Below, piece by piece: positions 56,301-59,300 of a stretch of 64,000 nt of DNA. Within the stretch, counting starts at the first letter, position 1. Each line of letters begins with the position of its first letter. Location of the stretch: NCBI RefSeq assembly GCF_013167455.1, contig NZ_CP038328.1; one strand, 5' to 3'. The DNA comes from Escherichia coli O157:H7 (lineage in GTDB: Bacteria; Pseudomonadota; Gammaproteobacteria; Enterobacterales; Enterobacteriaceae). Made by a program: the position numbers.

Positions 56301-59300
56301 CTGATTTCTGCTGCTCATACAGCAGGCGTTTAGCTTCGTCCTGGTCAGAAAAACGAGTAAGCAGGTGGCGAATCACAACCGCCAGCTCTCCTTCTATTTT
56401 TTCTGCCAGCATGGGGTCGCGTTCGTTTTCCGGTACAACCTCCGAAAAATTGAATATCACCCGACGACGTGAAATCCCCCCGCTGCGGTCACTGAATGAC
56501 ATGGCGTTATTGTTCACCGCCAACACTACCGCCTGAATGCGTGTTGAGTAGGGGGCTTTATGCTTCGGGTCGATTGCCACCTTGTCACCGCCTGTAATGG
56601 CCTTAATTCCTGCGCCATCACCAGCGTAACGGGTCATATCCGGCATGATAATCAGCGAAAAGCCAACCACTAACGCGCGTTCCCTGGCATCTTCCAGCGC
56701 CTTCATGCTTGCCGATACCGTGTTGGCCTTACCCGCCAGCATGGTGCAAATCTCCGCCATCACGCTTTTACCACTTCCCCCTGGACCTGTTACCTCAATG
56801 AATAACTGCCAGTCGTACCGGTTCGCCAGCACCATGAATAATGCAGCCAGTACGCGATCCGCCTTGCGGTCATTCTCAGCCACCGAACGGCGTAACCACT
56901 TCCAGAAATTCGGCGCATGTGTTGCCAGCGTTTCCCCCTCTGCTGGTGGGCTGAAAGGTAATTCACTGGCAATTAACAACCAGTCGTTTTTGTTATGCTC
57001 CCGAAAATCGCCTGTCCGGGTATCAAAAACACCGTTACTGAATCCAATCAGGTTACGGGCTGTATTCCCCATTACAGGCAAACTTAACTTCATGGTATCG
57101 ACCGCCGATTTAATGGCGTTCTGCGAATAGCTGATCTCCGCATCAATGAAAATCTGTGCCATAGCTCGCTGTAATTCTTTATCCTGTACTGGCTCCCATA
57201 CAACGCCGTTGTAATAGTGAACAGTGTCAGAGTCAGCATGAATCGCCAGTTCACCGCCATAATGTGCCAGGAGAACTTCGCCGCGTTGACTTGCTCCCAT
57301 CTGGTTAAGCGCCAGTGATGAAGCGTTATCGTCTTTTACCCGCTCTTTTTTCTTTACAGGCAGTTCAACTACCTTTTTCTTTTCCGCCTGCTCTGCCCGT
57401 TCACGTTCCAGATATTCGCGCCAGTTCTCCCGTTTCTGGCTGTGCATTCCTTCAGGGTAATAATCAGCATCCCTGACACCTGCCGCTGCCAGTTTCTGCC
57501 CGATGGTATTAACAAGCCCCGAACGCAATAACCCCGCCTGATAGAGACGCACGCGATAGCGTCCGTCCGGTACGATTTGCAGGTTGTCCAGTTCGGCAAG
57601 TTGTTGCTCTCCAAGCCAGACAGGTGGCACGTTATCGCCAGCCAGTCGCCCGTCCTGTTCCTGCCACTGCTTCGCATGTGCCCACGCATCACTACCCGCA
57701 AAAATGATGACTTCCGTCATTTTGTCACGTGGCTGGTGTTTTAAATTTGGCGCTTTTTTCATTTCTGCTCTCTCCACGCGGCAATCATGTTTTTCAGTTC
57801 CTGTAGTTTTTTATCAACATCCATACATGGCACATGGTTATTTCTGGAAGGCGGGATTTCCCGCCTGAATCTGCTAATAAAGATCTCCACGTTCAGCGAA
57901 CTATGAAATGAATAGCCATCACGAATAAAATACACACGGTCAAACATCAGTTCTTTTACCGTTACTCTGTTACCGTTCTTATCCAGATAAATAGCGCCGG
58001 GGATAATTTTTGGGTGTGCATAACCGCTGGCAGTCAAGCCAGATAAATATGTTCTCATGATTATTTATCCCCGATTTGAATCAGTATTCGCTTTCTTTAT
58101 GGCATTTAATGCATCTGTGGCATTTTCAATGGTGCACCGTAACGAAATATTAAACTGTCCAAGCATTGCCAGTAACAAACCGATATTACCCATATCAATG
58201 CGCATGACCTTTTCGTCATAGTCCTCATTTTCTGACGCATGCCACATCAGGCTACCAATTGACGCAACAGCCATTGATATATTGTCAGTAGCCCCATCCG
58301 CAGCGGAATAAACCTTTTTAGCAATATCATGCTCACAGTTAAAATGCGGATTAATCAGGTACTGGTAATTTGACATATCAGGCATGGCACACCCCCTGAC
58401 GAATACGGGCGGCGAATACAGCAACACAACCGGACGGGCAACGGCTACGCGCTTCGCGTTCCGTCCAGGCGGTTACGTGGATGATTTGATGTTCTGACGC
58501 GCCAAAGATGATAAAGCGCCAGAGAAAGGCGGTTTGAGAATGTACAAGGGTAGGGATAGTAGCCATGTTGGCAGCCTCCTCAGTGTGGTTAAGATAACCG
58601 CCACCGGAAACGCCAATTTCGCTGGTGGCGGACTGTACAGGGTTGGCGTAACCGGACACTGAAGAAACCGGCGCGGATTGCTCCGCCCCCGTACAGCCCA
58701 CCATTGATAAGGTGTGACTATGCGGCACAAAAAAACACGCGGGGCGCGTGTTATGCGCTTCAGTTTTGCCCAGGACGCCAATCCCGGCACCCGTTTTATG
58801 AGGTGCGCGGGAATCATAGCTATTTTCGACACTGGCGATCAACTGGTTTTTTTCTCCGATATTCAGGGCCAGAAAACGCCACACAAAGGCCGTTTGTGTG
58901 TGTACAAGGTGTGGTATATGATTTACGGCAACCATAACGGCTCCTAGTTTACGTTGTTGGTTAGAAGCCCTGCGAGTGGTAACGACACTTGCGGGGCTTT
59001 GTCTTTTCATCGATTACCTTGATAAAGGTGTCAGCCACTATATTAGTAACAGGTGTCAGCCACGTCAATAGTGTTTTTCCGTTTTCTTGTGTGTATACTG
59101 TCAGCCACCTAATAACGAGGAAATCAGATATGGCAACAAAAGCAGTTAATGCAAAATCCAAAAAGCTTGAGGCTCGAGTACCACACGCAATAGCTGATGC
59201 TGTAGAAAATTTAAAGGAAGATGGCGAAAGTACAGGGCAATTTATCGTTTCGGCACTTGAAGGCGAGATCAAACGCCGCCAGCGCCGCAAGGCCAAAGAA

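What the first reader, a model, noticed from the sequence alone, without database searches (positions are those of the whole stretch)
57759..58385. Translational coupling through the island replication operon
Successive minus-strand genes overlap by ATGA or ATGCCTGA stop/start junctions (Icd-like to ~106-aa ORF at 58378-58385; 99-aa ORF to replication gene at 57759-57762). This indicates one tightly coupled operon running from the operator region to the replication gene, and supports the unknown ORFs being genuinely expressed.
Basis: seen in the sequence. Interest (0 to 1): 0.3.

Follow-up and report, generated by a model that had tools for sequence, protein, structure and literature searches.

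The report
Overlapping genes in satellite replication operon
The stop/start overlaps are real, conserved joints in the early replication operon of a small E. coli phage satellite built like phage P4's early operon; this is an ordinary, well-precedented arrangement and not a new mechanism.

Summary
ATGCCTGA (58385..58378, 8-nt overlap) joins the Icd-like gene to a 106-aa ORF. ATGA (57762..57759) joins the 99-aa DUF4222 gene to the primase-helicase gene. Both joints are conserved in relatives: 174 of 176 Icd-like stops overlap the next start across 10 unrelated downstream gene families, and 152 of 155 DUF4222 stops form [AG]TGA with the replicase start. Both small ORFs show purifying selection (pN/pS 0.34 and 0.32).

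The context is a 9.6-kb PICI-type satellite at tRNA-Pro. Its early operon copies the P4 left operon: promoter with three GTGGCTGACA repeats, isrK-like RNA with an intrinsic terminator, C4/CI-type antisense RNA, Icd/Kil-like gene, orf106, DUF4222, alpha-like primase-helicase, then TGTTCACC origin iterons. P4 itself joins kil to epsilon with an 8-nt overlap.

Two corrections apply. The Icd-like gene is 62 aa (58566..58378), nested at the end of a 210-aa frame that reads through both RNA genes. A terminator and an antisense-RNA gate also lie between the operator region and Icd.

Functional coupling is likely but untested: every downstream start has its own Shine-Dalgarno sequence and no masking structure is predicted. 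Interest is low.

The parts
59029..59108 (-). Promoter-like site (TTGACG 59068-59063, 17 nt, TAATAT 59045-59040) bracketed by three direct GTGGCTGACA repeats (59108-59099, 59063-59054, 59038-59029). This is the 'operator region'.
   Evidence: family D9. The repeat positions were read from the sequence. Function is inferred.
59130..59309 (+). Divergent YlcI/YnfO-family gene (59 aa), a candidate regulator of the operator.
   Evidence: NF041551, 60.6 bits against a cutoff of 30; phrog_949. The regulator role is inferred only.
58378..59010 (-). 210-aa open frame (eta-like) that reads through isrK and C4 and ends as the Icd-like gene. It has an internal ATG at 58935 with a Shine-Dalgarno sequence (AGGAG).
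   Evidence: Pfam Phage_ASH matches aa 65-158, which is the RNA region. The Icd frame is open for at least 300 nt upstream in 76% of 129 contexts, against 0-2% in the other frames. P4 has the same layout.
58813..58842 (-). Second promoter-like site (TTGATC, 18 nt, TATGAT) ending 7 nt before the isrK 5' end.
   Evidence: Function is inferred by analogy with PisrK (PMC4825925).
58730..58806 (-). isrK-like RNA (seqA / a1b1-type target) ending in an intrinsic terminator hairpin (58752-58734) plus a T-run.
   Evidence: RF01394, 66 bits against a gathering score of 50. Terminator scan. The a1 and b1 segments are complementary to C4.
58621..58708 (-). C4 / P4-CI-type antisense RNA.
   Evidence: RF01695, 77.6 bits against a gathering score of 45, full length. 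P4 CI gives the same hit, with the same 55-nt spacing to the kil ATG.
58575..58620 (-). a2/b2-type target of the C4 RNA. It includes the Icd-like Shine-Dalgarno sequence GAGGAGG (58581-58575).
   Evidence: The best duplex of the C4 loop in the whole leader is -22 kcal/mol, at 58610-58571. The a' segment pairs at 58620-58606.
58378..58566 (-). Icd/Kil-like gene, 62 aa. Its last codons carry the Shine-Dalgarno sequence (AGGGGG 58397-58392) and the start codon of orf106.
   Evidence: NF033153. It aligns with P4 Kil and D6 Icd. The C>G-rich (rut-like) window starts at 58556.
58378..58385 (-). Joint 1: ATGCCTGA, an 8-nt stop/start overlap from Icd-like to orf106.
58065..58385 (-). orf106, a protein of unknown function at the position of P4 epsilon.
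   Evidence: phrog_15327, E = 3e-70. pN/pS is 0.34 against 1.3 and 1.9 in the other frames. PGAP annotates it in relatives.
57759..58058 (-). DUF4222 gene, 99 aa. It starts 6 nt after the orf106 stop.
   Evidence: PF13973, 61 bits against a cutoff of 27. pN/pS is 0.32.
57759..57762 (-). Joint 2: ATGA, a 4-nt stop/start overlap from DUF4222 to the replicase.
55945..57762 (-). P4-alpha-like primase-helicase (D5_N, DUF5906, Pox_D5), 605 aa counted from the ATG.
   Evidence: phrog_864, E = 9e-194. In relatives a stop lies two codons upstream of the ATG in this frame, which fixes the start (contexts).
55710..55937 (.). Replication-origin iterons TGTTCACC / GGTGAACA. Eight of the nine copies in the window lie here.
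   Evidence: The octamer is the same as the P4 ori type-1 repeats.
55382..55399 (-). First terminator-like site downstream of the operon, after the 79-aa ORF 55657..55418.

Best explanation
The overlaps are the conserved gene joints of the early (replication) operon of a 9.6-kb PICI-type phage satellite. The satellite is integrated at tRNA-Pro(GGG), between att repeats at 52269-52300 and 61843-61874.

The operon is built like the left operon of satellite phage P4. In order it contains: a regulated promoter; an isrK-like RNA with a terminator; a C4/CI-type antisense RNA; the Icd/Kil-like gene, nested at the end of a long open frame; orf106; DUF4222; an alpha-like primase-helicase; and TGTTCACC origin iterons.

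A ribosome finishing Icd-like terminates 5 nt past the orf106 ATG. That ATG lies 6 nt downstream of a Shine-Dalgarno sequence encoded in the conserved Icd C-terminus. A ribosome finishing DUF4222 terminates on the replicase ATG.

The most likely consequence is termination-reinitiation coupling together with unbroken ribosome cover of the transcript. Under this reading, expression of the replication genes follows translation of the first gene. The Icd-like ribosome-binding site is the pairing target of the C4-type RNA, and the first about 80 nt of Icd are C-rich and G-poor (rut-like). One RNA-RNA interaction could therefore silence the whole operon through loss of coupled translation and Rho polarity, as described for P1 immI and P4 immunity.

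Shown here: the geometry, its conservation, the coding status of the small ORFs, the RNA family matches and the complementarity.
Inferred: coupling, polarity and promoter use.
For: - Geometry.
- PGAP-annotated relatives carrying different replicases (primase, RepA helicase, DUF927) all have Icd to next gene at 8 nt and DUF4222 to replicase at 4 nt.
- Survey: 174 of 176 and 152 of 155 joints overlap. There are 10 unrelated downstream families behind Icd-like, with the stop always within 14 nt of the start.
- 45 of 47 unique joint contexts keep a Shine-Dalgarno sequence at or below -3.5 kcal/mol, with an almost invariant ATTCGTCAGGRGGTGNGCCATG cassette.
- P4 joins kil to epsilon by GTGCGTAA and epsilon to orf151 by 8 nt.
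- Rfam C4 and isrK match in the window and in P4, with identical 55-nt spacing from C4 to the ATG.
- The best target of the C4 loop is the Icd Shine-Dalgarno region.
- The strongest C>G window of the operon lies in Icd codons 4-29.
- No internal promoter-like or terminator-like sites were found.
- pN/pS is 0.34 and 0.32.
- Experimental precedents: AUGA coupling of orf45 to anrP behind isrK (PMC4825925); 13 of 14 overlapping pairs strictly coupled (PMC6728339); C4 and isrK profiles are reported to hit Gram-negative PICIs and to correspond to P4 CI and seqA (PMC10111431).
- The P1 icd-ant and P4 kil/eta/timm mechanisms are from my own knowledge (Biere, Citron and Schuster 1992; Riedel et al. 1993; Forti et al. 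1999). Those papers could not be read here.
Against: - Every downstream start has its own good Shine-Dalgarno sequence, and the local folds around the joints are no more stable than shuffles. Ribosomes could therefore load independently, and coupling need not be obligatory.
- One joint is a 6-nt gap.
- The surveyed loci are related and mosaic, so the counts are not independent. The DUF4222-replicase joint sits inside a module (DUF4222 plus a shared replicase N-terminal domain of about 140 aa) that is inherited as a unit.
- The promoter and terminator scans are consensus matches only, and the number of promoter-like sites found is not above the shuffle expectation.
- The rut-like call rests on base composition alone.
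Confidence: 0.7

Rival explanations
1. The overlaps are by-products of genome compaction and modular recombination in a small mobile element. Each gene is translated independently from its own ribosome-binding site, and no regulatory coupling exists.
For: The Shine-Dalgarno sequences before orf106, DUF4222 and the replicase are strong (-10.7, -5.7 and -6.4 kcal/mol). No masking structure is predicted. Overlaps are common in all prokaryotes, at about 15% of pairs (PMC6728339). The Icd C-terminal Shine-Dalgarno-ATG cassette is also a mosaic boundary: many hits start at query position 732, which is window position about 58419.
Against: Behind the fixed Shine-Dalgarno-ATG cassette, the Icd stop falls within 1-4 out-of-frame codons in all eight downstream families where the start precedes the stop. 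By chance this would happen in roughly 0.2 per family, or about 1e-5 to 1e-6 jointly (inference). The two remaining families have a 1-nt overlap. Nearly all tested overlapping pairs are coupled (PMC6728339). Coupling was shown in the homologous isrK locus (PMC4825925).
Confidence: 0.2
2. The small ORFs (orf106, DUF4222) are not genes. The region between Icd-like and the replicase is a long structured leader or carries separate transcripts with internal promoters.
For: orf106 has no Pfam or NCBIfam match. Neither protein has a known function.
Against: Purifying selection is specific to the annotated frames. DUF4222 matches at 61 bits against a cutoff of 27. Both match PHROG families at full length. 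PGAP annotates both in relatives. No minus-strand promoter-like site lies between 58813 and 55945.
Confidence: 0.04
3. Translation enters the chain much further upstream. The long eta-like frame (from ATG 59010 or 58935) is the functional first cistron on transcripts from the operator-controlled promoter. Its ribosomes read through the isrK terminator and the C4 region, making these transcripts insensitive to the antisense RNA. The 62-aa Icd-like start is used only on transcripts from the inner promoter.
For: The Icd frame is open for at least 300 nt upstream in 76% of 129 contexts, against 0-2% in the other frames. ATG 58935 has a Shine-Dalgarno sequence of -6.5 kcal/mol. There are two promoter-like sites. 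P4 has the same nested layout. The P4 eta/kil model is from my own knowledge (Forti et al. 1999).
Against: 24% of contexts lack the long frame, including L004 (75 nt) and L002 (126 nt). The Gifsy-1 study found the nucleotide sequence, not the amino-acid sequence, conserved over the equivalent region (PMC4825925). There is no expression data. This reading complements the best explanation; it does not exclude it.
Confidence: 0.4

Closest known systems
Left (early) operon and immunity region of satellite phage P4 (seqA / CI RNA / kil-eta / epsilon / orf151 / orf106 / alpha / ori-crr)
   Same: The order is the same: isrK-type element, C4-type RNA, 55 nt, then an Icd/Kil-like gene nested in a long frame. 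The next gene is joined by an 8-nt overlap behind a Shine-Dalgarno sequence in the Kil C-terminus. The operon ends in a primase-helicase followed by TGTTCACC iterons. Pfam Phage_ASH matches the same stretch in both.
   Different: The genes between Kil and the replicase are unrelated: orf106 and DUF4222 here, against epsilon, orf151 and DUF5375 in P4. No BLASTP similarity was found and the Pfam matches differ. The replicase is 605 aa and lacks the P4 alpha N-terminal part; it matches positions 84-670 of phrog_864 and scores below the TIGR01613 cutoff. The late module is PICI-type (TerS plus a capsid-like gene), not psu-delta-sid.
isrK-orf45-anrP locus of Salmonella prophage Gifsy-1
   Same: An isrK RNA with a leaky terminator is followed by a short ORF whose stop overlaps the next start. 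Translational coupling was demonstrated by start-codon and stop-codon mutants (PMC4825925). isrK scores 66 bits here.
   Different: There the coupled downstream gene is an antirepressor and the joint is AUGA. Here the chain is Icd-like, orf106, DUF4222 and replicase, and the first joint is 8 nt.
immI operon of phages P1, P7 and D6 (c4, icd, ant)
   Same: A C4 RNA has a1/b1 and a2/b2 targets, and b2 covers the icd ribosome-binding site. The Icd-like protein family is the same. The icd stop overlaps the next start in D6 (TGATG, 1 nt).
   Different: The downstream cargo there is an antirepressor, not replication genes. The overlap length differs. The P1 regulatory model is from my own knowledge and was not read here.
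Gram-negative phage-inducible chromosomal islands (EcCICFT073-type PICIs)
   Same: All five core parts are present in the canonical order: int, alpA, primase-replicase, capsid-morphogenesis gene and TerS. The size is 9.6 kb against a median of 9.5 kb (PMC10085698). C4 and isrK hits in such PICIs are already reported (PMC10111431).
   Different: Induction by a helper phage and packaging were not and cannot be tested here.

Membership tests
Translationally coupled gene pair (termination-reinitiation type) | Co-directional genes whose stop and start codons overlap or lie a very few nt apart | tested here: met
   The distances are 8-nt overlap, 6-nt gap and 4-nt overlap. The requirement for overlap or a very short distance follows PMC10666635 (title and abstract).
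Translationally coupled gene pair (termination-reinitiation type) | Translation of the downstream gene depends on translation of the upstream gene | not testable with these tools
   This needs premature-stop or start-codon mutants with translational fusions. The only indirect evidence is conservation.
Icd-like host cell division inhibitor family (NF033153) | Score above the curated cutoff of the family model | tested here: met
   57.2 bits against a cutoff of 25 for 58566..58378. It aligns with D6 Icd and P4 Kil. Division-inhibiting or killing activity was not tested.
C4 antisense RNA (RF01695) | Full-length match above the gathering score, with loop segments complementary to flanking a/b target sites | tested here: met
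   77.6 bits against 45, model positions 1-87. The best duplexes lie at the Icd Shine-Dalgarno region and in the isrK region.
isrK (RF01394) | Match above the gathering score, including the terminal terminator hairpin | tested here: met
   66 bits against 50. The terminator-like site lies at 58752..58734.
P4-like satellite (SatelliteFinder definition: int, psu, delta, sid, alpA, epsilon, alpha) | Presence of the psu-delta-sid hijacking genes and of epsilon | tested here: not met
   None of the ORFs submitted to Pfam or PHROGs matched Psu, Delta, Sid or Derepression (epsilon) families. Not every ORF of the island was submitted. The late region has TerS and a capsid-like gene instead. The definition is from PMC10085698. 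The element therefore works like P4 in its early operon but is not a P4-like satellite.
PICI (five core components) | Integrase, AlpA/MerR/Stl-type regulator, primase-replicase, capsid-morphogenesis gene and small terminase, in that order, without tail or lysis genes | tested here: met
   int 60392-61651; alpA 59689-59895 (weak: 17.9 bits against a cutoff of 21; its counterparts in two relatives are annotated as helix-turn-helix regulators); replicase 55945-57762; TerS 54312-54803 (Terminase_2 and phrog_641); capsid-like gene 53181-54158 (Phage_capsid). The att repeats lie 9.6 kb apart.
PICI (five core components) | Induction, replication and packaging depend on a helper phage | not testable with these tools
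   This needs an experiment.

The most novel reading that the evidence does not exclude
The last seven codons of Icd/Kil-like genes (ATTCGTCAGGRGGTGNGCCATG, followed by a stop within 1-4 codons) may act as a portable coupling adaptor. Under this reading, whatever gene recombines in behind it is automatically subordinated to the C4/CI antisense-RNA checkpoint. Ten unrelated families were seen here, plus P4 epsilon. This would let satellites and phages swap the cargo of the immunity-controlled operon without rebuilding its regulation. Some conservation of the Icd C-terminus and of the Pfam Ash family would then reflect nucleic-acid signals rather than protein function.
Probability: 0.3. Interest if true: 0.4.

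Novelty: new member of a known kind. Interest (0 to 1): 0.2.

Why it matters
The result matters mainly for annotation. It fixes the true starts of four genes. It shows that the 62-aa Icd-like gene is nested in a longer frame laid over two RNA genes. It also shows that this E. coli satellite controls its replication genes with a P4/P1-type antisense-RNA gate whose signal is plausibly passed downstream by gene overlap. Gram-negative PICI induction is usually described only through AlpA. The RNA gate and the conserved coupling joints indicate where a second, post-transcriptional control layer could be tested. Nothing here challenges current understanding.

Tried and rejected
- Local RNA folding of 100-nt windows around the Icd, orf106, DUF4222 and replicase starts gave no structure beyond the shuffle expectation (z = -1.2, +1.1, -0.4, +1.1). 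I therefore dropped the idea that coupling works by unmasking a sequestered ribosome-binding site.
- BLASTP of orf106 against P4 epsilon and of DUF4222 against P4 orf151 found nothing. P4 orf151 has no Pfam match. The middle genes are therefore not P4 homologues at the sequence level.
- A seven-sequence Icd/Kil alignment was too divergent for the search for related loci, so a four-sequence alignment was used instead. The survey is consequently biased towards enterobacterial relatives.
- The primary P1 and P4 papers (PMC523184, PMC204598) are not held, and a P4 keyword search was uninformative. The P1 and P4 mechanisms are therefore cited from my own knowledge.
- The cf-PICI preprint and the EcCIMP1 paper do not mention Icd, antisense RNA or DUF4222.
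- The upstream GTG (57777) that the ORF listing gives as the replicase start was rejected. It has no Shine-Dalgarno sequence (+0.4 kcal/mol), and relatives have a stop two codons before the ATG in that frame.
- A cf-PICI classification was considered and rejected. Of the packaging-type genes, only a capsid-like gene and TerS were found among the late-region ORFs tested in the 9.6-kb element.
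Full report
**Observation**

On the minus strand, 58385..58378 reads ATGCCTGA. The ATG opens a 106-aa ORF (MPDMSNYQ...), and the TGA closes the frame ending ...RIRQGVCHA*. 57762..57759 reads ATGA. The ATG opens a 605-aa replicase, and the TGA closes a 99-aa ORF. The joint between the 106-aa and 99-aa ORFs is a 6-nt gap (TAA 58067-58065, ATG 58058).

**What the genes are**

- The last 62 codons of the upstream frame (58566..58378) match the NCBIfam Icd-like model, at 57.2 bits against a cutoff of 25.
- The 99-aa ORF is a DUF4222 protein, at 61 bits against a cutoff of 27.
- The 106-aa ORF matches phrog_15327 over its full length.
- The replicase carries D5_N, DUF5906 and Pox_D5 domains and matches phrog_864 'DNA primase' at E = 9e-194.
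- Directly after the replicase lie eight of the window's nine TGTTCACC/GGTGAACA octamers (55710-55937). This is the same octamer as the annotated type-1 origin repeats of phage P4.
- The element is bounded by a repeat of the tRNA-Pro 3' end (52269-52300 and 61843-61874), giving 9.6 kb.
- It has all five PICI core parts in canonical order: integrase, AlpA-like regulator, primase-replicase, TerS and a capsid-like gene (definition in PMC10085698).
- Parts of the 3.25-kb operon occur in 2135 of 5426 complete E. coli genomes. 68 genomes carry at least 80% of it.

**What lies upstream**

The mechanical 210-aa ORF 59010..58378 is not a simple gene. Rfam finds a full-length isrK RNA (58806..58730, 66 bits) and a full-length C4 antisense RNA (58708..58621, 77.6 bits) inside it.

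The isrK match ends in an intrinsic-terminator-like hairpin with a T-run (58752..58734). It is preceded by a promoter-like site ending 7 nt before its 5' end (58842..58813). A second promoter-like site (59068..59040) is bracketed by three direct GTGGCTGACA repeats and faces a divergent YlcI/YnfO-family gene.

The loop of the C4 RNA finds its best partner in the whole leader at 58610-58571. That stretch contains the Icd-like Shine-Dalgarno sequence GAGGAGG. The joint segment of the C4 RNA pairs with GGGATTGGCG in isrK and with GAAATTGGCG just after C4. This is the a1/b1 and a2/b2 arrangement of the P1-type C4 system.

P4 itself gives the same two Rfam hits in the same order. Its spacing from the C4 3' end to the kil ATG is the same 55 nt. 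Its Kil protein aligns with the Icd-like proteins. That C4 and isrK profiles detect P4 CI and seqA relatives, and hit Gram-negative PICIs, has already been published (PMC10111431).

**Are the joints conserved?**

Four PGAP-annotated E. coli relatives were examined. Their replicases are a primase, a RepA-type helicase and a DUF927 protein. All have an 8-nt overlap after Icd-like and a 4-nt overlap between DUF4222 and the replicase.

In 163 loci gathered with the DUF4222 and Icd-like proteins:

- 174 of 176 Icd-like stops overlap the following start. 144 overlap by 8 nt and 23 by 11 nt; the rest overlap by 14, 4 or 1 nt.
- The downstream proteins fall into 10 unrelated clusters, and the joint overlaps in every cluster.
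- 45 of 47 unique contexts keep a Shine-Dalgarno sequence. This sits within an almost invariant cassette, ATTCGTCAGGRGGTGNGCCATG, which encodes the Icd C-terminus.
- In P4, kil to epsilon is GTGCGTAA (8 nt) and epsilon to orf151 is also 8 nt.

The Icd frame continues out of frame into unrelated genes, yet it always stops within one to four codons. Chance placement of the stop is therefore unlikely: roughly 0.2 per family and about 1e-5 or less jointly (inference).

152 of 155 DUF4222 stops form [AG]TGA with the replicase start, in 23 different sequence contexts and three replicase classes. These replicases share a homologous N-terminal domain of about 140 aa, so this joint is one inherited module rather than several independent events.

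As a baseline, 10.6% of mechanical ORFs on the antisense strand of the same loci have an overlapping start. About 15% of co-directional gene pairs overlap in prokaryotes generally (PMC6728339).

**Are the small ORFs genes?**

Among 54 and 49 distinct alleles, pN/pS is 0.34 for orf106 and 0.32 for DUF4222 in the annotated frames. In the other frames it is 1.3 and 1.9 for orf106, and 0.70 and 1.18 for DUF4222. This agrees with the family matches and settles their coding status without relying on the overlaps.

**How it most likely works**

The geometry is that of termination-reinitiation coupling. That mechanism was strict in 13 of 14 tested overlapping pairs (PMC6728339). It was also demonstrated by mutation for the orf45-anrP AUGA joint directly behind isrK in Gifsy-1 (PMC4825925).

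The Icd-like ribosome-binding site is the target of the C4-type RNA. The strongest C-over-G stretch of the operon mRNA is Icd codons 4-29, with 27 C against 10 G in 78 nt. Blocking that one ribosome-binding site should therefore both remove coupled initiation downstream and expose a Rho entry site. This is the mechanism described for P1 immI and for P4 immunity (own knowledge: Biere et al. 1992; Forti et al. 1999).

No minus-strand promoter-like or terminator-like site lies between the isrK terminator and 55399. This is consistent with a single transcript through the replicase and the origin.

**Caveats**

Each downstream start has its own Shine-Dalgarno sequence (-10.7, -5.7 and -6.4 kcal/mol). 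Local folding shows no masking structure. Coupling may therefore be quantitative rather than obligatory, and compaction or modular recombination remains a live rival. The surveyed loci are related mosaics. The promoter and terminator scans are consensus matches only.

**A further layer**

The Icd frame is open for at least 300 nt upstream of the Icd ATG in 76% of 129 unique contexts, with a median of 528 nt. The other two frames reach this in 0-2% of contexts. Pfam's Ash family matches exactly the translation of the isrK-C4 stretch, both here and in P4. This reproduces the nested eta/kil layout of P4. It suggests that on transcripts from the outer promoter, ribosomes read through the terminator and the RNA gene.

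**Verdict**

The arrangement is a new member of a well-known kind (a P4/P1-type RNA-gated early operon inside a PICI). Interest is low.

Noticed in passing
window 58537-58818 (-); L084 (P4) 8168-8584 (-): Pfam Phage_ASH (PF10554) matches the conceptual translation of the stretch that Rfam identifies as isrK plus the C4 RNA, both in the window and in P4. The family's conservation may be driven largely by the RNA genes or by the nested eta-like frame.
   Followed up: partly
window 58378-59010 (-), and 129 related contexts: The Icd-like reading frame stays open for at least 300 nt upstream of the Icd ATG in 76% of unique contexts (median 528 nt), against 0-2% in the other two frames. It crosses a terminator hairpin and an antisense RNA gene.
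   Followed up: partly
window 58860-58935 (-): The long frame begins with a second, partial Icd-like N-terminus (MVAVNHIPHLVHTQTAFVWRFLAL). This is identical to the N-terminus of the complete Icd-like gene of locus L003, as if the isrK-C4 cassette sat inside a split or duplicated Icd-like gene.
   Followed up: no
window 59029-59108 and 59130-59309 (+): Three direct GTGGCTGACA repeats abut the -35 hexamer and cover the start region of the outer promoter-like site. They face a divergent YlcI/YnfO-family gene plus a 62-aa ORF (59352-59540) that ends at a terminator-like hairpin (59630-59662). This is a candidate repressor-operator pair in a type of element for which only AlpA activation came up in the PICI papers read here.
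   Followed up: no
window 57343-57762 (-); loci L003, L004, L029, L031 and others: The first 140 aa or so of the replicase have no Pfam match. They are shared at 68-95% identity by three otherwise different replicases (D5-type primase-helicase, DUF927, RepA-type helicase), always directly behind a DUF4222 gene. DUF4222 and this domain may work together.
   Followed up: partly
window 55710-55937: Eight of the window's nine TGTTCACC/GGTGAACA octamers cluster just after the replicase gene. The octamer is identical to the P4 ori/crr type-1 repeat, implying a P4-alpha-like origin specificity.
   Followed up: partly
window 58479-58556 (-): The strongest C-over-G stretch of the operon mRNA (27 C, 10 G in 78 nt) covers Icd-like codons 4-29. 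It is a possible Rho utilisation site that would be exposed when Icd translation is blocked.
   Followed up: no
L001 2576-3461: A close relative (E. coli STEC2018-607) carries two tandem C4 RNA plus Icd-like modules. The second has its own a1b1-type target (RF03163, 46.8 bits). Each Icd-like gene is joined to the next gene by an 8-nt overlap.
   Followed up: no
window 52353-52378 and 61696-61721: A perfect 26-nt direct repeat (CCGTATAACTAAACGTATAACTAAAA) lies just inside both ends of the island. These are probably integrase arm-type binding sites.
   Followed up: no
window 58964-59001 (-): A 15-bp GC-rich hairpin sits at about +30 to +70 of the transcript predicted from the outer promoter. It has no T-run on the mRNA strand. 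Its role is unknown; it could be a 5' stabiliser or a processing signal.
   Followed up: no
window 49586-52177 (+): An 863-aa ORF reads like an autotransporter or adhesin by its sequence alone (no family search was run). It ends about 90 nt outside the island's att repeat, so it is a neighbour and not island cargo.
   Followed up: no
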